Virus record (IMG/VR): IMGVR_UViG_3300029825_000002
Span: 23,129-87,128 of that record
DNA from: a virus
DNA length: 64,000 nt
Strand: one strand, 5' to 3'
The translations under genes and the position numbers were made by a program. The first letter of the stretch is position 1. The number at the start of each line of letters is the position of its first letter. Below are positions 17,206 through 41,039 of the stretch, piece by piece. The notes under the pieces were generated by a model. It made no database searches and had not been told where the DNA came from. It was given only the letters and a program-made list of their open reading frames with translations.

Positions 17206-19734
17206 ATGAAAAAGAAAAAAGTAAATGTTGAGATAGCTGCTATTTCATCTTTAATAGATACTAAAGATTATTTAGCAGTAAAAGATAAACAAATAAATTC
17301 TTACTTCTTTCAAGAGTTTAAAGAGATAGCTAAATTTATAGATGATTACTATTTAAAAAATAGTGCAGTACCTACAGAAAGAGTTATACATTTAAATTTT
17401 CCTGCCATTAAATTAGAACATAAAGAAGATGGAAAAGTAGGAACAGAAGAACCTATTACTTATTGGTTAGATGAATTGCGGAAAAGAAAAAAGCATAATT
17501 ACATTGCAGAAACAACAGAAGCCATAGCAGAAAGCCTAGAGGATTTTGAAACAGATAAAGCTTATGCAGTAATGAAAAAAGCTGTACTTACAGTTGAAAA
17601 TGAAATAGTAGAAACTCAATCATTAGATATAACAAAAGACAGTGTTGATAGAAAAAAGGTGTACCTGGAAAGAGAAAATAATAAAGGTATGATTGGAATA
17701 CCCACTGGAATAAAAGGATTAGATTATGCAATAAAGGGATTACAGAAAAAGAATCTGATAACTATTATAGCCAACACTGGCGTAGGTAAACAAATAGCCT
17801 AAACAATACAATATAATTTATACTTGTGATATACTATACCTGTACAAGCAGTATAGGAGGAAAGTATAATGAAAAGTATAGAAAATAATAAACTATCTAA
17901 TAAAGAAAGACATTTGCAATCTTTAAAAATAGCACATGAAGCTATAGAATATTATCTTAGTAATAAAAGTATAAGTTTAACTAAACTAGCAATTAAATTT
18001 GGGACAACTAGGACTACTTTATATCATTATATGAAAAATTATAACATAGCAGTTAGAGATATGAGCAAAAAGTATTTTTATGATAAAGATTTCTTTAATC
18101 TAATTAATACAGAGGAAAAAGCTTACTGGTTGGGATTTATATATGCAGATGGATATATTTCTAAAGATAATCATTTAGAAATAACTTTGAATAGTGGAGA
18201 TAAACAACATTTATATAAATTTAGACAAGCTATAAAAAGTAATGTACCTATAAAGACTAAATGGGTAACATTAAACGGAAAAAGATATAAAGCTTGTAGA
18301 ATTAATGTTTGTTGCACCAAAATGTGTAAGGATTTAATAAAACAAGGTGTTTTTAATAATAAATCTTTAAATATACAATTTCCTAAAATATTTAGAGCAA
18401 ATTTAATTAGGCATTTTATTAGGGGATATGTAGATGGAAATGGTTGTTTATCTACAAGAAATATGGTGTATATAAGTTGTGGTTCTAAATTATTTTTAGA
18501 AAGTTTACAAAAAGTATTAATTAAAAAGTTAGATTTAACTAAAGTAAAAATATATAGTGATAAACGTTCCAAAAATTATGCTTATGCCAAAGTTGGAGAA
18601 CAAGGTAAACTTATTAGAAAGTATTTGTATAAAGATTGTAAGATTTATTTAGATAGAAAGTATTGCAAGGTATTGCCTATTCTTACTCAACTTCCACTGG
18701 AGAGTAAGAAAGTGTAACGAGCAAAATCGGTAGAGCATATCCAGAAATGGAGATTAGTAGTACCGAGGTAAGTAATTAGATTGCGAAAGGCTAATTGCCA
18801 CCGTAGAGCGTAGGGGATGAATAAATATAATTCCCCCAAGAGTGCTTGTTGCTTTGTGGAGAAATATTAGAGTACAAAATGTACGCCATGCTGAATAGGA
18901 ATTGACCTATTGATGAAAATGAGGGAAACCTCCAGAGTGTAGGATAAAAAGCCTACAGTTAATAACATCCAGAAAACCTGGCTAGAGATTATTATTGGTG
19001 CATATGCAAATATTAATGGATATGCAGTACAACAGTTTGTAACAGAAATGTCTGAGGAACAAATGGAAGATAGGTATGAAGCAGTATTAATTGGAATGAC
19101 TTTAGGTGAATTTAATTATGGCAGATTTAAAAATGGTACTTTAACCAAAGAAGAGAAAGAAAGATATTTTCATTTTTTAGATAAAGTTAAACCTAGATTA
19201 GAACCATTAAAAATAGAACAAGCTTCAAGTGTATCTAATATGTCAGCTAAGATAGACTTATTTAAACCAGATTTAGTTTTAGTTGATGGAGTTTACCTTA
19301 TGGATGACGATAGGGGAGCAGATAGCGATTGGTTAAGAGTAGCACATATAACTAGAGATATAAAGAATTTATGTAAACAAAGAAAAATTCCTTTTGTAAT
19401 TAATACACAAGCAGATAAAAGTACCAGTAAAAAAACAGGTCCAGAACTAGACAATATATCTTATTCTCAAAGTGTAGGACAGGATAGTGATGTAGTGTTG
19501 GGGTTGTTTCGTGATGAACAAATGATTGAAGATAAAGAAGCAAAGTTAAAAGTATTGAAACAAAGAGAAGGTGTCCTAAGTAGTATTATGATGAACTGGG
19601 ACTTTAATAGAATGAATTTTGATACTATTTATACTATTGGTGGACAGAATGAAGAAGAACATAAACATGATGAAAGTAAGATTGTTGGTGAAGATGAAAA
19701 TAATTCTGCTGTATTAGGTGATAACATAGAATAA
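17206..19734 (+). CDS. dnaB: DnaB-like replicative helicase, join(17206..17787,18973..19734)
   Basis: Splicing restores ANTGVG|KTWL Walker A; exon 2 has TEMS, VLVDGVYLM, NTQA, QDSDVV, VLKQREG. Confidence 0.9.
17788..18972 (+). mobile_element. Group I intron in the dnaB Walker A
   Basis: Exon ends in U, intron ends in G; P1 UAGGU/GCCUA; P3 AACGAGCA/UGCUUGUU; P7 GCGUA/UACGC. Confidence 0.9.
17869..18717 (+). CDS. Intron-encoded LAGLIDADG homing endonuclease with N-terminal HTH
   Basis: AYWLGFIYADG and HFIRGYVDGNG motifs. Confidence 0.9.
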   Translation: MKSIENNKLSNKERHLQSLKIAHEAIEYYLSNKSISLTKLAIKFGTTRTTLYHYMKNYNIAVRDMSKKYFYDKDFFNLINTEEKAYWLGFIYADGYISKDNHLEITLNSGDKQHLYKFRQAIKSNVPIKTKWVTLNGKRYKACRINVCCTKMCKDLIKQGVFNNKSLNIQFPKIFRANLIRHFIRGYVDGNGCLSTRNMVYISCGSKLFLESLQKVLIKKLDLTKVKIYSDKRSKNYAYAKVGEQGKLIRKYLYKDCKIYLDRKYCKVLPILTQLPLESKKV

Positions 19735-26506: not shown

Positions 26507-26695
26507 ATGTCTGAATGTTATTATCAATTACCTTTTCCAGATGAAGAACTTAGAAATAATACAAAATTAATAGCTGCTATAAATGGAGAAACATTAAAAG
26601 ATTTTATACTTAATGCAATAAGAGATAGGTCAAAAGAAGTGCAGAAAAGAACAGGGGTGAATTTAGATGAAATTAAAAAGCAAAGGAAATCCTAA
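26507..26695 (+). CDS. Small putative RHH DNA-binding protein
   Basis: AAGGAGG SD before ATG 26507; ELRNNTKLIAAINGETLKDFILNAI. Confidence 0.5.
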   Translation: MSECYYQLPFPDEELRNNTKLIAAINGETLKDFILNAIRDRSKEVQKRTGVNLDEIKKQRKS

Positions 26696-28761
26696 TAAAA
26701 AGTTTCATTCTCTAGCTAATAAATCCAGTAACAAGAAAAGTGAACCAGATAACAATATGTCTGAAAGAAGAAAACAGTTAAGAGATATTACTAATAGCAT
26801 GAATAAGGATTTTGGAGTTAATGCAGTAAGATTAGGTTGTGATTTAACAGAAGAAGAAAGAGTAATACAGAGAATACGAACAGGTAATGTATCCTTAGAT
26901 ATTGCTCTTGGTGGTGGTAAGAGATTGCCTAGTATTATAGTAATGTAATACTGTAAATTTGTTAACTGCTGGAAAGCTAAGTCGAAAGATAGGCTAATCA
27001 GCATCTATTAAATAAAATTAAGGAGGAGTCACCATGAAAGAAATATGGAGGACAACTAAAATAAGTAAATATTATAAAATAAGCAATTTGGGAAGAGCTA
27101 TGAGTATAGATAGGGTTATATCATATTTAAAACAAGGTAAAGTAAGAAAACTAAATGTAAAAGGTAAAATTCTTAAACAAAAGATTAATGATAAAGGATA
27201 TTGTAGTATACAAATACAAGATGCTGAAAATAAAATACACAAAGTTGTTTTAATACACAGACTTGTAGCTGAAGCTTTTATTGCTAATCCTAATAATGAA
27301 CCTTTAGTATTACATTTAGATGATAATCCTAGAAATAATAGATATGATAATTTAATGTGGGGAGACCAACAAGAGAATATGAGACAAGCTTCTGAAAGAA
27401 ACAGAATACCTGATAATTCAGGTAGGTTTAAAAAAGGTCATAAACCTAATCGTACCTCTTTTAAAAAAGGTCATATATCTAAACCCATTTTTCCAGTGGG
27501 GTATAAAGCTTATAATGTTAAGAAGTTGGAATGTTCTAATGGATTAATTTTTGATTCATCCTATAGAGCTGCTGACTGGATAAATAAAACTTTATATAAT
27601 AATACACATAAAATAACCTCTATATCTCAAAATATACGAGCTTGTGCTAATGGAAGAAGAAAAACGGCTTATACATTTACTTGGAATTTTATTTAGTAGT
27701 TCAGAGACTATCCCATAAAAGGGAGTACACTACCTAGTGGAGTGGAAATGCAAATTACCCTATTTAAATATAGAGTAGGGTAGAGATATAGTCCGATACT
27801 TTATTGAAAAATAGAGCAGTCTAGCATAGACGGGTAGGAAGTAACGATTCTTACCGAACTTTTGATTCCTATTGGGAGAATGACAGAAATAAGTGGAGCT
27901 TTTAGTTCTACCAAAACAACTGAAGCAATACACATAATGAGAAATGCAATTTATAGAAATAGCTTTAACGTTTTATTTCAAGATGTAGAAGGAACAAGTG
28001 GTAAAGAAAATGGAGAACCAGATGAAAAGTATTTTAATGCTTTAGGAATAGATGTTAATGACTTTATTTATAGCAGACCAGATAGTTTAGAAGAGTGTAC
28101 TCAAATGATATTAAATGCTCAACAAAGTGGACAAGTTCAAATGGCTATTTGGGATTCTTTAGCTATGACTGAACCTAATAAAATATTAGATAAAGATATG
28201 GAAGATACAGTTCAAATGGGGGTAAAACAAAGGTTAGACAATGAGTTTTTTAGTAAATATCAACTCAATAATAATAGATTAGTAAGAGAAGGGAAAATAC
28301 CCTTCACCCTTGTAGTAATAAATCAATTAAGAGAAAAGATAGGTGCAATACACCAGGACCCTGAATATACACCAGGGGGGCGTGGTAAAAGCTTTGCAAG
28401 TTCTGTTGAAATACGATTTAGACAAGGTGATTGGATAAAAGAAAAAGACAAAATAGTTGGACAGGTAGTTAAGTACAAAATTAATAAGAACAAGACCTAT
28501 ATGAGAATGAAGTCGGGAGAGTTTGATATTTATTTAGATGAAAATAATTTAGGTGTTCCAAAGTTCTATACTGATAATGAAAAGTCCCTTGTAATAGAAG
28601 CTGTTCAGTATGGACTAATAGAAAAAAGGGGCGGTTGGTATTATGTTGATAATGAGAAGTTTCAAGGTTTAGATAAAGTTTTATCCTATTTACGAGAACA
28701 CCCCAAAGTGGTAGATAAGTTTCGGGAACAAATACTTGATTTAGATAAAAAGGTGAAATGA
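26667..28761 (+). CDS. recA: RecA-like recombinase, join(26667..26918,27864..28761)
   Basis: Splicing restores SLDIALGGG|IPIGRMTEISG; WDSLA; INQLREKIG; TPGGRG; KNKT. Confidence 0.92.
26919..27863 (+). mobile_element. Group I intron in recA
   Basis: Exon ends GGU, intron ends G; CUGCUGGAAAG..AAUCAGCA core; UUCAGAGACUA and AGAUAUAGUCC (P7). Confidence 0.9.
27034..27696 (+). CDS. Intron-encoded HNH homing endonuclease (NUMOD4-HNH-NUMOD1 type)
   Basis: YKISNLGR; LIHRLVAEAFI.NP..VLHLDDNPRNNRYDNLMW; KTAYTFTW. Confidence 0.9.
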   Translation: MKEIWRTTKISKYYKISNLGRAMSIDRVISYLKQGKVRKLNVKGKILKQKINDKGYCSIQIQDAENKIHKVVLIHRLVAEAFIANPNNEPLVLHLDDNPRNNRYDNLMWGDQQENMRQASERNRIPDNSGRFKKGHKPNRTSFKKGHISKPIFPVGYKAYNVKKLECSNGLIFDSSYRAADWINKTLYNNTHKITSISQNIRACANGRRKTAYTFTWNFI

Positions 28762-37611: not shown

Positions 37612-38001
37612 ATGGTTCATATTGCAGAAATTATTGGATGCCTAATTGGCATAGGAGTAGTACTCTGTTGTTTTTATGTTGTCAGAGTTGAAGGTACATC
37701 AATGCTCCCTACGTATAAGCGTGGTGATATTCTTTTAGCTACACGAGTATTTTCAAGAAAACATCTTGAAATAGATAGTGTTTATATAATAAAAACATCT
37801 AAGTTTTATAATTCAATAATATTTAAAAAGATGTTTCCTCATAAATTTATTATTAAAAGATTAAAAGTTTGGGATGCCAAACATCATTTAGTATGGATTG
37901 AAGGGGATAACAAAGCAGAATCATATGACAGTAGATATTTTGGTTTTATCACAGAAAAAAGTATTGTAGCAAAAGTATTGTGGCAAATAAAGAAGAGTTA
38001 A
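37612..38001 (+). CDS. S26 (signal peptidase I-like) serine peptidase
   Basis: N-terminal TM; VEGTSMLPT catalytic Ser; IIKRL catalytic Lys; GDN..SYDSRYFG. Confidence 0.88.
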   Translation: MVHIAEIIGCLIGIGVVLCCFYVVRVEGTSMLPTYKRGDILLATRVFSRKHLEIDSVYIIKTSKFYNSIIFKKMFPHKFIIKRLKVWDAKHHLVWIEGDNKAESYDSRYFGFITEKSIVAKVLWQIKKS

Positions 38002-38032
38002 AATAACAACTAATACAGGAGGAATGATAGAA

Positions 38033-39305
38033 ATGGATAAGAAGAAAAATATATTAAAAGTAGCGGGTAAAAGTAATGTCTCTAAAGTATCTGGAAGTAT
38101 AATTAAAAGCATAGAAGATAACAAAGATGTTGAACTTCATTCAATAGGTGCTAAATAGCATTGGCTCCTAGTAAAAAACACTGCGAAATTAAGCGGGAAG
38201 GCTGAAAAGTTAATCCGAACCGAAGGCGTGTTGTAAAAACACTAAGCTATGTATGAATGGCATAGCTATAAGCTTAAAAACTTAGTCAGGGGCAGAGCAT
38301 AGGGAGTGAACCTATAATTATAGAATATAATCTCCTCACGAGGTCGCAGTAATCTATTTTATTTCTTGCACAGTTTGATTAAATATGTTAATGTTAATAT
38401 GTAATTAATCAAACAAGTAAGGAGTGATTAACATTGTCTAATCAATATAGTAAGCAAACTTTAGCTAATATACTTACAAAAGAATATCTTGAAAAAGAAT
38501 ATGTGCAAAAACGAAGATTTATAAAGGATATATCATTAGAGGTTGGTTGTAGTTTAAATTCAGTTAGAAACTATTTAAAGAAATATAATATAGATATAGA
38601 AAATAGATATGAAGATAGACAAACCTTTAAAGGTTTAAATCCTGCTAGAAAAATAATGACTAAAGTTTATTTAAAAGAAGAATATGTGCATAAAAATAGG
38701 TCACTAAATAATATAGCTAGAGAACTAAATTGCTCTAGTGCTTTAGTCAAAGAAATGCTTTTAACACATGGAATAAAAGTAGACAAGCTAAAGTATGGTG
38801 AAACTTTTGAATTGTGCAATGGAGTTTCAGAAAGTCATGGTTATTTATTAGTCTATATGCCTAATCATAGATTAGCGGATAAGAAAGGTTATGTAAGATT
38901 ACACATATTACTAGCAGAGCATTATTTTAATAGACTAGTTAAAAAAGGTGAAGTTGTACATCATAAAAATTTTAATAAATTGGATAACACACCTGATAAT
39001 TTAGTTATTATGACTAAAAAAGAACATGACAGACTTCATGCTCAATTAAGATGGGATAATGATAATTTTAGATAGATTAAAAAGATATGCCGAACTAATA
39101 CAAATATAAGTATTAGAATTATAGGATAAAAAGCCTATAAGATAACATTATGGCTGCTGTAAATCAAGGTGCAAAAGCAATAGCTACTGCAAGAGGAATA
39201 ATGGCTACAAAAGGATATGACATTTTAGTTAAAATTGGCTTTGATGAAGTAGAGATTGAGGGAGAAACACGAACTATGCTGAAGTTTATTTTAGTTGTAC
39301 AGTAA
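38033..39305 (+). CDS. spoVS: SpoVS homologue, join(38033..38152,39153..39305), 90 aa
   Basis: Spliced product ILKVAGKSNVSKVSGSI..SIGA|AAVNQGAKAIATARG..GFDEVEIEGETRTMLKF follows the SpoVS pattern; absent from the ORF track. Confidence 0.9.
38153..39152 (+). mobile_element. Group I intron in spoVS
   Basis: U|...G| boundaries; P1 UAGGUGCU/GGCUCCUA with U-G; P3 ACUGCGA/UCGCAGU; P7 GCAUA/UAUGC. Confidence 0.9.
38434..39075 (+). CDS. Intron-encoded HNH endonuclease with two N-terminal HTH-like repeats
   Basis: GYVRLHILLAE..VVHHKNFNKLDNTPDNL; repeated L.KEYL..EYV..I..E..CS. Confidence 0.88.
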   Translation: MSNQYSKQTLANILTKEYLEKEYVQKRRFIKDISLEVGCSLNSVRNYLKKYNIDIENRYEDRQTFKGLNPARKIMTKVYLKEEYVHKNRSLNNIARELNCSSALVKEMLLTHGIKVDKLKYGETFELCNGVSESHGYLLVYMPNHRLADKKGYVRLHILLAEHYFNRLVKKGEVVHHKNFNKLDNTPDNLVIMTKKEHDRLHAQLRWDNDNFR

Positions 39306-39610
39306 TGGTTCATCTAGGACATTTTATAATATTTAAACATAGTGGTGGGTTTATTGTTTATAATGAACATAAACCCTTTCATCATAAAGGTATTAAAGGA
39401 CATTCTCATTTGCGGAATTATTCTAGTGCTAGATATGCAGTTATTTGCGTAAAGCAGAATAAAATTCCTCGAAAGTGTTCTTTAAGATATTTAGAAACAT
39501 TAATAAGACTTTCGGAAGATGAAAAGTATATAAAGAAAGTACAACAATTAATTAAAACTAGAAAACAAAAAGGAAAGAAACAAAAACCAGTAAAGAAAAA
39601 ATTAAAGTAA
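39305..39610 (+). CDS. Basic hypothetical protein
   Basis: Start overlaps the spoVS stop (TAATG). Confidence 0.6.
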   Translation: MVHLGHFIIFKHSGGFIVYNEHKPFHHKGIKGHSHLRNYSSARYAVICVKQNKIPRKCSLRYLETLIRLSEDEKYIKKVQQLIKTRKQKGKKQKPVKKKLK

Positions 39611-39631
39611 AAATATATGGAGGTAATTAAT

Positions 39632-39757
39632 ATGGAAAATAACTTATTATATAATGGAGGGGCAATAGTTAGTGTAACAAAGGTATTTAATGACATTTCA
39701 TGTTCTCATTTCTTAAAAGAGTATCAAGGTAAAGAAGGTGTTAAATTTGGGTACTAA
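39632..39757 (+). pseudogene. Orphan 5' fragment of queD (41 codons)
   Basis: GGAGGT SD; VTKVFNDISCSHFLKEYQGK parallels the QueD N-terminus. Confidence 0.7.
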
Positions 39758-41039
39758 AAGAGTTATAATATCCAAAGAACAGCTTCAAGAATGTCTTGAT
39801 TTAGGTTTAACAAGAATAAAGATGGCAGAAAGATTTAAATGTGGTGTAGTTACATTAGATAGAAATATGAAAGCTAATGGATTAGAATATCTTAAATCTA
39901 GTCATTTTAATAGTGGTGAAGGTAATCCTGCCAAAAGACCTTCAGTTAGAAGAAAGATAGCTAATACTGTTGCAACTTTATGGGAAGATGGTTTTTATGA
40001 CAATAGAATAGATGGTATGAGTTATAAAACAGGATTTGATGACCCTAATTATAAAGGTCATAAATGGGATTATAGAGATTATCTTGCTAAATATCAGGAT
40101 ATAAATGTATGTGCTGAATGTGGTAGAACAATAAAAGATAGTAAAATTGATGTTCACCATGTGGATGAAAACCATGAAAACTGGTTAATCACTAATTTAA
40201 AACCTTTATGTGTTAAATGTCATCAAACTAAACATTATAAATCTATGAAAACTCCTTATGTAACTATAGGTATTAAAAGCCATTTTGATTCTGCTCATAA
40301 TCTTTTAAACTATAAAGGTAAGTGTTCTCGAATCCATGGACACCGATATTTTTATGAAATTAAAATTAAGGATAGAATAAATAGAGAAACAGGAATGGTA
40401 ATGGATTTTAAGGTTCTGAAAAAACTTATAAAAGAAGGATTTGAAGAAGTAGTTGACCATGAATATTTAAATTATGTTTTACCTTTTAATACTACAGCAG
40501 AAAATATGGTAGTATGGATGTTTGAATTTTTAAGTAAAAGGCAATTAGTAAAAGGTATACAAGAAATTTCTTTATGGGAAACTCCTGAATGTATAACTAC
40601 ATTTACTTATAAAGATTTATTAAGAAGCTACATGGAAAACAAATTAGATTGTTTTACTACTAATTTTGAAGAAGATACAAAGAATTTTGACACCCAGTTA
40701 GTTGAAGATAATTTAGCAAAGAAAATGCAGGAGCAAGTATTTATTTATTGTGGTGAACGTCAACAATTGGGTAAAACTACTGGTTTAATTAATCAAGTAA
40801 GAAAAGATTCAGATGGAATACTAATTGTAGCTAATAGAGTAACTTCTAAACTGATTTATAGTAGATTTGGTATGAGAAGAAATAAAGTTTGGACATTAAA
40901 AGAATTAATGCAACATTCACCAGAGAGATTTAATTTGTATATAGACAATTTAACTCCAGAGCAAAGAGTAAATTTATTAAATTATGTTAATAGGAATAAA
41001 GGTTACTATATAATCAGAAATATGATTATAGAAGCATAA
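39738..41039 (+). CDS. queD: HNH endonuclease - QueD - P-loop-like fusion
   Basis: CAECG..VHHVDENHEN..LCVKCH; FDSAH..KCSRIHGH..GMVMDF..DHEYLN..TTAEN..LWET; C-terminal GERQQLGKTT. Confidence 0.88.
   Translation: MLNLGTKRVIISKEQLQECLDLGLTRIKMAERFKCGVVTLDRNMKANGLEYLKSSHFNSGEGNPAKRPSVRRKIANTVATLWEDGFYDNRIDGMSYKTGFDDPNYKGHKWDYRDYLAKYQDINVCAECGRTIKDSKIDVHHVDENHENWLITNLKPLCVKCHQTKHYKSMKTPYVTIGIKSHFDSAHNLLNYKGKCSRIHGHRYFYEIKIKDRINRETGMVMDFKVLKKLIKEGFEEVVDHEYLNYVLPFNTTAENMVVWMFEFLSKRQLVKGIQEISLWETPECITTFTYKDLLRSYMENKLDCFTTNFEEDTKNFDTQLVEDNLAKKMQEQVFIYCGERQQLGKTTGLINQVRKDSDGILIVANRVTSKLIYSRFGMRRNKVWTLKELMQHSPERFNLYIDNLTPEQRVNLLNYVNRNKGYYIIRNMIIEA

What the first reader, a model, noticed from the sequence alone, without database searches (positions are those of the whole stretch)
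38033..39305. Group I intron with HNH endonuclease hidden in a phage spoVS gene
Seen: neither exon appears in the ORF track. Joining 38152 to 39153 gives a 90-aa protein with IGA|AAVNQ..KAIATARG, aligning with SpoVS (IGAGAVNQ). P1 has the U-G splice pair, and P3, P7 and the terminal G are present; the HNH ORF sits in the P8 region. Established: phage group I introns mostly sit in DNA-metabolism or structural genes. Inference: homing into a 90-codon host-derived sporulation gene implies spoVS is common and conserved among co-infecting phages, and makes SpoVS output depend on splicing. I know of no described case, but could not search.
Basis: partly seen in the sequence, partly recalled or inferred. 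Interest (0 to 1): 0.75.

Follow-up and report, generated by a model that had tools for sequence, protein, structure and literature searches.

The report
Self-splicing intron inside phage spoVS gene
A 1,000-base group I intron carrying its own HNH homing endonuclease interrupts a phage copy of the small sporulation-family gene spoVS; this is an ordinary kind of mobile element in a host gene where it had not been reported.

Summary
Exon 1 (38033-38152) and exon 2 (39153-39305) match the SpoVS Pfam profile at positions 1-35 and 36-82, with no gap or overlap. Joining them gives a 90-aa protein that aligns without gaps to uninterrupted SpoVS genes of syntenic phages such as Bacillus phage BCD7.

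The 1,000 bases between them (38153-39152) have group I, subgroup IA anatomy:
- P1 with a U.G pair at the 5' splice site
- a P3/P7 pseudoknot, P4-P6, P7.1 and P8
- two P9 hairpins and a terminal G

The HNH_3 gene sits in the P8 loop. The RNA belongs to a large phage intron family (at least 106 IMG/VR contigs, 43 GenBank phages). On that family, 29 of 40 tested pairs show compensatory changes. A model of the family also hits the Twort and T4 nrdD introns. Rfam's Intron_gpI model misses it.

Four other diverged spoVS alleles carry the same intron and an orthologous HNH at the same codon. Their closest relatives lack it, which is the pattern homing produces. Splicing and cleavage themselves are inferred, not shown.

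Verdict: real, a new member of a known kind, of modest interest. The same phage carries at least two more group I introns; earlier notes of this scan on the same window had already flagged those two introns and the queD insertion.

The parts
38017..38022 (+). Shine-Dalgarno (AGGAGG) of spoVS, 10 nt before the ATG at 38033
   Evidence: read directly. The alternative ATG at 38024 is only 1 nt from it.
38033..38152 (+). spoVS exon 1, 40 codons, ends ..IGA
   Evidence: Pfam SpoVS profile 1-35, E 9e-8; PHROG 35646 positions 4-43
38153..39152 (+). group I (subgroup IA) intron, 1,000 nt. An in-frame stop (TAG, 38156-38158) lies two codons past the 5' splice site.
   Evidence: The intron's second codon (the third in-frame triplet after the splice site) is a stop in the relatives L117 and L120 too.
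38145..38170 (+). P1: exon 38145-52 pairs with the internal guide sequence 38163-70. U38152.G38163 marks the 5' splice site. There is one U-U mismatch at 38149/38166.
   Evidence: The guide base opposite the Gly wobble covaries in L117 (G with C) and L120 (A with U).
38181..38186 (+). P3 5' strand, pairs with 38344-38349
   Evidence: all 6 pairs have compensatory changes in the family (helix 1). Also found in the single-sequence fold.
38194..38217 (+). P4 (38194-97 with 38214-17) enclosing P5 (38200-03 with 38208-11, GAAA loop)
   Evidence: read from alignments A2/A3. P4 and P5 change on both sides between subfamilies. P5 appears in the fold. No formal column count was possible.
38219..38291 (+). 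P6 (38220-21 with 38289-90), P6a (38225-27 with 38285-87) and a window-specific insert of three hairpins
   Evidence: P6 columns: helix 2. Insert hairpins.
38297..38301 (+). P7 5' strand, pairs with 39086-39090. It crosses P3, forming the pseudoknot.
   Evidence: helix 3: two pairs change on both sides in L029 and L088. A further compensatory variant occurs in L117.
38302..38336 (+). P7.1 (38302-06 with 38332-36) with an inner hairpin P7.1a (38312-15 with 38320-23). This is the subgroup IA hallmark.
   Evidence: helix 4: 5 of 5 pairs compensatory, 100% of cells paired
38337..38343 (+). conserved joining segment (CACGAGG) between P7.1 and the P3 3' strand
   Evidence: nearly invariant in 31 family members
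38344..38349 (+). P3 3' strand
   Evidence: helix 1
38350..38356 (+). P8 5' strand, pairs with 39073-39079
   Evidence: falls in the family's P8 columns, where 6 of 6 pairs are compensatory
38373..38435 (+). inverted repeats ahead of the endonuclease gene: 38373-85 with 38402-14, and 38390-98 with 38427-35. The second overlaps the TTG start and may repress translation.
   Evidence: A similar hairpin sits before the ORF in L117 and L120. Function is inferred.
38434..39075 (+). HNH_3 homing-endonuclease gene, 213 aa. It has a TTG start, its own AAGGAG ribosome-binding site and two helix-turn-helix-like N-terminal repeats. Its stop codon lies inside the P8 3' strand.
   Evidence: Pfam HNH_3 40.1 bits; PHROG 7545, E 1e-25. 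It is 48-57% identical to the ORFs of the other spoVS introns.
39073..39079 (+). P8 3' strand
39086..39090 (+). P7 3' strand
39095..39116 (+). P9 hairpin (39095-101 with 39110-16)
   Evidence: helix 6; fold
39119..39140 (+). P9.1 hairpin (39119-25 with 39134-40) with a conserved A-rich loop
   Evidence: helix 7; fold; the loop motif recurs in at least 106 viral contigs
39152..39152 (+). terminal G of the intron (omega G). It is the only G in the last 11 bases.
   Evidence: A G precedes exon 2 in the other spoVS introns and in most family members.
39153..39305 (+). spoVS exon 2, 50 codons plus TAA, starts AAVNQ
   Evidence: Pfam SpoVS profile 36-82, E 2.8e-11; PHROG 35646 positions 45-92

Best explanation
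Bases 38153-39152 are a mobile subgroup IA group I intron inserted at a codon boundary in the most conserved motif of a phage spoVS gene (IGA|AAVNQ).

Shown here:
- the two exons are an exact, gapless split of a SpoVS protein;
- the intervening RNA has the full group I core, and its helices fall in the columns of a family alignment with strong covariation;
- an intact HNH_3 gene lies in the P8 loop.

Inferred mechanism:
- On the pre-mRNA the intron folds and binds guanosine at P7.
- It cleaves after U38152, then joins exon 1 to G39153 after releasing G39152. This gives mRNA for a 90-aa SpoVS.
- Unspliced RNA yields only a 41-residue stub, because a stop lies two codons into the intron.
- The HNH protein is translated from its own ribosome-binding site. 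It cuts intron-less spoVS alleles of co-infecting relatives, and repair copies the intron in (homing).
- The ORF's stop codon lies in P8 and hairpins cover its start. Translation of the endonuclease and folding of the ribozyme therefore probably compete, as in other phage introns.
For: - Exon continuity: Pfam SpoVS profile 1-35 and 36-82. The 90-aa product aligns without gaps to BCD7 gp031 and to P0003.
- Synteny: the order signal peptidase, SpoVS, QueD, QueE is shared with BCD7 and with contigs L117, L120 and L122.
- Predicted structure: RNAalifold on 33 rows finds P3, P6, P7.1, P8, P9 and P9.1 unaided.
- Covariation: with the P7 pseudoknot added, 96.2% of cells pair, against 30-44% when partners are slid. 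29 of 40 pairs change on both sides. No shuffle of 500 reaches any of the five measures.
- Family model in the window: model R1 hits both halves of the intron, 48.0 and 59.7 bits.
- Family model elsewhere: R1 hits the Twort intron cluster (E about 2e-8) and the T4 nrdD intron core (E 8e-5).
- P1: the guide sequence follows the exon's Gly wobble in two other spoVS introns.
- Distribution: four other spoVS alleles, below 50% identical to one another, carry the intron at the same codon. Their HNH ORFs are 48-57% identical to this one.
- Patchiness: the window's allele is 66% identical to an intron-less one but 39-46% identical to intron-bearing ones.
- Target site: a distant uninterrupted spoVS has an exact 23-nt match to the spliced junction.
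- Coding constraint: nonsynonymous differences are far below synonymous ones in every pair where the estimate is defined, for example 0.20 against 0.74.
Against: - No RNA data: splicing is not observed.
- Rfam RF00028 gives no match here at any threshold tried. It also gives none at gathering score on 14 loci holding family members, most of them ORF-less.
- P1 has an internal U-U mismatch.
- P6 is only two standard pairs in this copy, and P10 is weak.
- P4 and P5 could not be counted formally, because MAFFT put the subfamilies in different registers.
- The patchy distribution fits repeated precise loss as well as gain.
- The HNH ORF has no match to any solved structure by sequence, so its target and cut site are unknown.
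Confidence: 0.9

Rival explanations
1. The intron is a decayed relic that no longer splices. On this view spoVS is a dead gene in this phage and the HNH gene is simply a resident selfish ORF.
For: Rfam finds no group I match. P1 carries a mismatch and P6 is short. spoVS is dispensable for most phages: only 5 of 50,697 GenBank records carry it.
Against: - Every core helix is intact and sits in register with the family.
- Both exons keep open frames and score above the Pfam cut-off.
- Nonsynonymous change is well below synonymous change among intron-bearing alleles.
- Three intron-bearing lineages keep complete exon 1 and exon 2 frames, and two partial contigs keep exon 2.
Confidence: 0.05
2. 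It is a split gene rather than an intron. A free-standing HNH cassette landed inside spoVS, and the two halves are translated separately (44-aa and 51-aa ORFs) and work together.
For: Exon 2 is preceded by an in-frame ATG at 39150, and gene callers report it as a 51-aa SpoVS-domain protein.
Against: - No ribosome-binding site precedes 39150.
- That ATG is part of the conserved intron tail. In relatives it reads TTG or GTG, or is missing as a start.
- The flanks of the HNH gene are a covarying ribozyme core, not spacer.
- No intein or Hint domain is present, and a stop follows the junction.
Confidence: 0.03
3. It is a group I intron, but its 5' boundary lies one codon earlier (after 38149, GGU). 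That would give an 89-aa product reading IG|AAVNQ.
For: 38149 is also a U at a codon boundary, and the frame would be kept.
Against: - U38149 lies opposite U38166 in P1, not opposite a G.
- The Pfam profile positions are contiguous only with 38152.
- Homologues have eight residues, IGAGAxNQ, with no gap.
- L117 and L120 place the U.G pair at the same GCU codon.
Confidence: 0.02

Closest known systems
Subgroup IA self-splicing introns of Staphylococcus phage Twort (the cluster near 17-18 kb beside an annotated intron-encoded nuclease) and the T4 nrdD (sunY) intron
   Same: - Same RNA kind: the family model R1 hits them at E about 2e-8 (Twort) and 8e-5 (T4).
- The core is shared: the P3/P7 pseudoknot, extra pairing between P7 and the P3 3' strand, and a P7 strand motif followed by GAAC.
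- They too interrupt phage protein-coding genes at conserved sites.
   Different: - The host gene differs: spoVS rather than structural or nucleotide-metabolism genes.
- This copy has no P2.
- It has a P6 insert.
- It has an A-rich P9.1 loop typical of its own subfamily.
- The T4 nrdD intron carries a GIY-YIG enzyme (I-TevII) after the core, not an HNH in P8.
- Rfam's model does not score this family at its cut-off.
Bacillus phage SPO1/SP82 DNA-polymerase intron encoding the HNH nicking enzyme I-HmuI (recalled from memory, not tested)
   Same: A Firmicute-phage group I intron that carries an HNH-type homing endonuclease inside the ribozyme.
   Different: R1 gave no significant match in SPO1 (E 0.61). 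The HNH ORF here has no sequence match to any solved structure. The target gene also differs.
Group I intron in psbA of cyanophages (Zeng, Bonocora and Shub 2009, cited in PMC3984707)
   Same: A group I intron inside a host-like auxiliary gene of a phage rather than a replication or virion gene.
   Different: Per that paper's title, the psbA site is targeted by a free-standing endonuclease. Here the endonuclease is encoded in the intron. The gene family and the host phylum also differ.
Uninterrupted phage spoVS genes: Bacillus phage BCD7 gp031 (YP_007005882.1) and metagenomic P0003 (contigs L122-L124)
   Same: Same length (90-91 aa), same neighbours (S26 signal peptidase upstream, QueD/QueE downstream), and 47-66% identity to the spliced product.
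   Different: No intron. The Ala codon before the insertion site ends in C or G instead of the U that the splice-site pair needs.

Membership tests
Group I intron | P1 helix between the 5' exon end and an internal guide sequence, with a U.G pair at the splice site | tested here: met
   38145-52 pairs with 38163-70, U38152.G38163. The guide sequence covaries with the exon wobble in L117 and L120.
Group I intron | Terminal G before the 3' splice site | tested here: met
   G39152. A G is conserved before exon 2 in the four other spoVS introns and in most family members.
Group I intron | Conserved core with the P3/P7 pseudoknot and P8, supported by covariation | tested here: met
   P3 6/6, P8 6/6 and P7 2/6 pairs with compensatory change. 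96.2% of cells pair, against 44% or less when partners are slid. The window's strands fall in those columns.
Group I intron | P4-P6 domain | tested here: inconclusive
   P4, P5 and P6 can be drawn, and they differ on both sides between subfamilies. P6 was counted. P4 and P5 could not be counted because the alignment registers differ.
Group I intron | Score at or above the gathering threshold of Rfam RF00028 | tested here: not met
   No match. Relatives, most of them without an ORF, also score nothing at the cut-off. This is an operational test rather than a structural one. The model appears blind to this subfamily, and the 640-nt ORF splits the core.
Group I intron | Detectable kinship with introns recorded as self-splicing | tested here: met
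   Family model R1 hits Twort (43.2, 42.9 and 36.2 bits) and the T4 nrdD intron (28.8 bits). That these introns self-splice is from my own knowledge, and for T4 from the record's annotation.
Group I intron | Guanosine-dependent self-splicing | not testable with these tools
   Needs RNA work.
Subgroup IA | Extra pairing (P7.1 with P7.1a or P7.2) between the P7 5' strand and the P3 3' strand | tested here: met
   38302-06 pairs with 38332-36, with an inner hairpin., helix 4: 5/5 pairs compensatory. I did not try to assign IA1, IA2 or IA3.
HNH homing endonuclease (Pfam HNH_3, PF13392) | Profile match above the cut-off with His/Asn/His motif residues present | tested here: met
   40.1 bits against 24.8; PHROG 7545, E 1e-25. 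The motif HH..N..N..H can be read in residues 167-200.
HNH homing endonuclease (Pfam HNH_3, PF13392) | Cleaves the intron-less allele near the insertion site | not testable with these tools
   Indirect only: the intron is present or absent at a single site.
SpoVS (Pfam PF04232) | Full-length profile match and typical size (86-91 aa) | tested here: met
   The exons cover profile 1-82 of 83 contiguously, each above the cut-off. The product is 90 aa.
SpoVS (Pfam PF04232) | Role in sporulation | not testable with these tools
   The host is unknown. A homologue also occurs in a Stenotrophomonas phage, so the family name may overstate the function.
Intein | In-frame insertion with Hint splicing blocks | tested here: not met
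   A stop lies two codons after the junction. No Hint or intein domain was found.
Group II intron | Domain V and a reverse-transcriptase or maturase ORF | tested here: not met
   No meaningful Rfam group II match: only one chance-level hit on the opposite strand, 16.6 bits against a 65.5 cut-off. The ORF is an HNH nuclease.

The most novel reading that the evidence does not exclude
The intron may act as a gate on SpoVS production rather than as a neutral passenger. Unspliced RNA gives only a 41-residue stub. The endonuclease ORF ends inside P8, so its translation competes with ribozyme folding. The amount and timing of SpoVS would then depend on the folding and guanosine state of the infected cell. 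That would link a phage protein of a sporulation-associated family to host physiology through RNA catalysis.

A second, more likely point: this intron family is a large group of phage introns that the standard Rfam model does not detect. Many phage genes may therefore be annotated as two fragments.
Probability: 0.08. Interest if true: 0.7.

Novelty: new member of a known kind. Interest (0 to 1): 0.36.

Why it matters
- Annotation: it corrects a gene call. Two small 'SpoVS-domain' ORFs and an orphan HNH gene are really one spliced gene plus a mobile intron. The same error is present in at least four other metagenomic phage lineages.
- Range of host genes: spoVS joins the short list of auxiliary, host-like phage genes known to carry group I introns.
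- Evidence of homing: the case is clean. One codon in the most conserved SpoVS motif is occupied or empty in a way that does not follow the gene's own tree.
- Detection gap: the family (at least 106 viral contigs, 43 GenBank phages) is invisible to Rfam RF00028 at its cut-off. A dedicated covariance model would recover many split phage genes.
- What it does not change: how group I introns are understood to work.

Tried and rejected
- Rfam on the window, on the region and on the whole genome found no group I match at this locus. An E-value-limited Rfam run on related loci returned nothing. I therefore built the structural case from homologues.
- tblastn of exon 1 against GenBank phages found nothing.
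- A close-relative scan of viral contigs with exon 2 found nothing.
- Word-indexed protein searches found only the window's own exon 2 ORF. The exhaustive HMMER search was what found the relatives.
- The HNH protein has no sequence match in the PDB.
- No convincing promoter lies inside the intron; promoter-like sites are at the chance level.
- An exact search for the spliced junction in viral contigs found nothing. The one metagenome hit is a distant spoVS that happens to share the 23-nt site, not an intron-less copy of this phage.
- SPO1 gave no significant match to the family model.
- Intein, group II intron and two-polypeptide split-gene readings were considered and rejected (see the rivals and the membership table).
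- dN/dS values are rough, because synonymous sites are saturated.

Full report
**What is there.** The window is part of a 91.8-kb virus record. At 38033-39305 lie three ORFs:
- a 40-codon ORF behind a good ribosome-binding site;
- a 213-aa ORF, 38434-39075;
- a 50-codon ORF.

The first and third hit Pfam SpoVS at profile positions 1-35 and 36-82. Each is above the family cut-off. They also cover PHROG 35646 'sporulation protein' at 4-43 and 45-92. The middle ORF is an HNH_3 endonuclease and matches PHROG 7545. Joining 38152 to 39153 gives a 90-aa protein with ..IGA|AAVNQ... The same 5.2 kb is base-for-base identical in independent ENA and JGI assemblies, so it is not a mis-assembly.

**The gene context.** Bacillus phage BCD7 has the order signal peptidase I, SpoVS (90 aa, uninterrupted), two small genes, QueD, QueE. 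The window has S26 peptidase (37612-38001), split SpoVS, a small gene, QueD and a radical-SAM QueE. Metagenomic contigs L122-L124 have the same module with an uninterrupted 91-aa SpoVS. That protein is 66% identical to the spliced product. All of these align without a gap at the junction.

**The RNA.** Rfam's Intron_gpI model finds nothing here. BLAST nevertheless showed that both ends of the insert resemble non-coding stretches inside split genes of other phages:
- Staphylococcus phage vB-SscS-F1 (major tail protein);
- crAss-like cr6_1, just after an 'intron-encoded endonuclease';
- Clostridium phage phiCD211.

Many of these copies have no ORF and are about 250-300 nt long.

I aligned 31 such copies with the two halves of the window's insert. 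RNAalifold predicted P3, P6, P7.1, P8, P9 and P9.1 unaided, and 27 of its 33 pairs showed compensatory changes. I then added P7, which crosses P3; this is the group I pseudoknot. With it, 96.2% of cells pair, against 30-44% when the 3' partners are slid by 1-3 columns. 29 of 40 pairs change on both sides, and no shuffle of 500 reaches the observed values.

The window's bases occupy those same columns:

| Helix | 5' strand | 3' strand |
|---|---|---|
| P3 | 38181-86 | 38344-49 |
| P7 | 38297-301 | 39086-90 |
| P7.1 | 38302-06 | 38332-36 |
| P8 | 38350-56 | 39073-79 |
| P9 | 39095-101 | 39110-16 |
| P9.1 | 39119-25 | 39134-40 |

- P4 (38194-97 with 38214-17) and P5 (38200-03 with 38208-11, GAAA loop) can be read. 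They differ on both sides between subfamilies. MAFFT placed the subfamilies in different registers, so I could not count them formally.
- P1 pairs exon bases 38145-52 with 38163-70, with U38152.G38163 at the cleavage site and one U-U mismatch. Single-sequence folding recovers P1, P3, P5 and the P9 hairpins.
- The intron ends in G39152.
- The HNH gene lies wholly within the P8 loop, and its stop codon (39073-75) forms part of the P8 3' strand.
- The pairing between P7 and the P3 3' strand marks subgroup IA.

**Link to known introns.** I built a covariance model of the family's 3' half, R1.
- In the window it hits both halves of this intron (48.0 and 59.7 bits). It also hits a second family member in the DnaB-like gene (68.6 bits) and, weakly, the recA-like intron (18.2 bits).
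- In reference phages it hits three sites at 17.1-18.0 kb of Twort, two of them significant, beside an annotated intron-encoded nuclease. It hits a fourth Twort site at 57.5 kb (E 2e-8 to 1e-6 for the three significant sites).
- It also hits the core of the T4 nrdD intron, which the record annotates as a group IA intron encoding I-TevII (E 8e-5).
- SPO1 was not hit significantly.

**Other spoVS alleles.** An exhaustive HMMER search with exon 2 returned 90 cluster representatives. Four of them (P0005, P0010, P0012, P0013) begin with residues translated from the conserved intron tail, followed directly by G/S-A-x-N-Q. Their contigs show:
- exon 1 (where the contig reaches it), an HNH_3 ORF and exon 2;
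- where the contig is long enough, the same peptidase, SpoVS, QueD order.

Their HNH proteins are 48-57% identical to the window's. The ORFs of other family introns are unrelated.

In L117 and L120 the intron starts after the same GCU codon and has a stop as its second codon. The guide-sequence base opposite the Gly wobble changes with it: G with C, and A with U. L117 also has a doubly compensated P7.

Presence of the intron does not follow the spoVS tree. The window's allele is closest to an intron-less one (66%), and L120 is closest to intron-less BCD7 (61%). Intron-bearing alleles are only 39-47% identical to one another. A distant uninterrupted spoVS (L138) has an exact 23-nt match to the window's ligated junction. 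The site therefore exists unoccupied in nature. Nonsynonymous differences are well below synonymous ones in all pairs where the estimate is defined, so the interrupted genes are under coding constraint.

**Mechanism.**
- Shown: the split, the RNA architecture and its covariation, the intact endonuclease gene, and the present-or-absent pattern at a single codon.
- Inferred from the established behaviour of group I introns and their endonucleases (review PMC3984707): guanosine-initiated self-splicing restores the mRNA. The HNH enzyme cuts empty sites in co-infecting relatives. Repair copies the intron in.
- More tentative: the hairpins at 38373-38435, one of which overlaps the TTG start, and the ORF's run into P8 suggest that endonuclease translation is held down and competes with ribozyme folding.

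**Novelty.** Full-text searches found no paper linking spoVS to an intron and none linking phiCD211 or BCD7 to group I introns. Phage spoVS is already reported as an auxiliary gene in several of the papers listed. Group I introns in phage genes are well known (PMC3984707, PMC11878797), including one in the host-like psbA gene of cyanophages. This is therefore a new host gene for a known kind of element. The useful side result is that a large phage intron family escapes the standard Rfam model.

**Earlier notes of this scan.** Notes on the same window had already flagged the DnaB intron, the recA intron and the HNH insertion in queD. What I saw agrees with them, and R1 gives independent support for the first two.

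Noticed in passing
window 17206-19734: A DnaB-like helicase gene is split right after its Walker A motif by another member of the same intron family. A LAGLIDADG ORF (17869-18717) lies ahead of the core. The core and tail at 18799-18972 score 68.6 bits with family model R1, and the 3' motif matches exactly at 18940-18954.
   Followed up: partly
window 26667-28761: A RecA-like gene is split (N-terminal part 26667-26948, C-terminal part 27862-28761) by an insert that holds a 220-aa endonuclease-like ORF (27034-27696). Rfam RF00028 scores 29 bits at about 27536-27816, below its cut-off. R1 scores 18.2 bits at 27697-27854, with a T4-like P7.
   Followed up: partly
window 39617-41039: A 433-aa ORF fuses an HNH domain (residues about 105-172) in frame to a complete QueD (177-290) and to a further roughly 140 residues with a P-loop-like motif. 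A 46-aa ORF just upstream (39617-39757) looks like an orphan QueD N-terminus. This points to an endonuclease insertion with a partial duplication rather than an intron.
   Followed up: no
L117:2443-4215: In a related contig the QueE radical-SAM gene next to the interrupted spoVS carries an intein (Pfam Intein_splicing). These phages seem to collect several kinds of mobile insertion in one gene module.
   Followed up: no
L002:2300-2870 (Clostridium phage phiCD211, record 28.6-29.2 kb): An unannotated, ORF-less member of this intron family ends about 20-30 nt before the record's annotated Intron_gpI feature. Two introns may therefore sit almost back to back between the minor tail and tape-measure genes.
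   Followed up: no
L003:1695-3600 (Staphylococcus phage vB-SscS-F1): The 'major tail protein' is annotated as two CDS pieces. An RF00028 hit (45.9 bits) lies upstream of the first piece, and a second, ORF-containing family intron lies between the two pieces. The gene probably carries two introns.
   Followed up: no
IMG/VR loci L011-L116: The intron family defined by the A-rich P9.1 loop motif is widespread: at least 106 viral contigs, plus 43 GenBank phages of Staphylococcus, Clostridium, Clostridioides, Enterocloster, Streptococcus, a cyanophage and a crAss-like phage. The ORF sits in different loops in different members: upstream of P4' (in or before P5), in P8, or ahead of the core. Rfam reports none at its gathering score on 14 loci tested.
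   Followed up: partly
window 37612-41039; L005, L117, L120, L122: A conserved phage module places an S26-type signal peptidase and SpoVS directly upstream of the 7-deazaguanine genes (QueD, QueE, QueC). It is shared with Bacillus phage BCD7. Why a signal peptidase and SpoVS travel together is unexplained.
   Followed up: no
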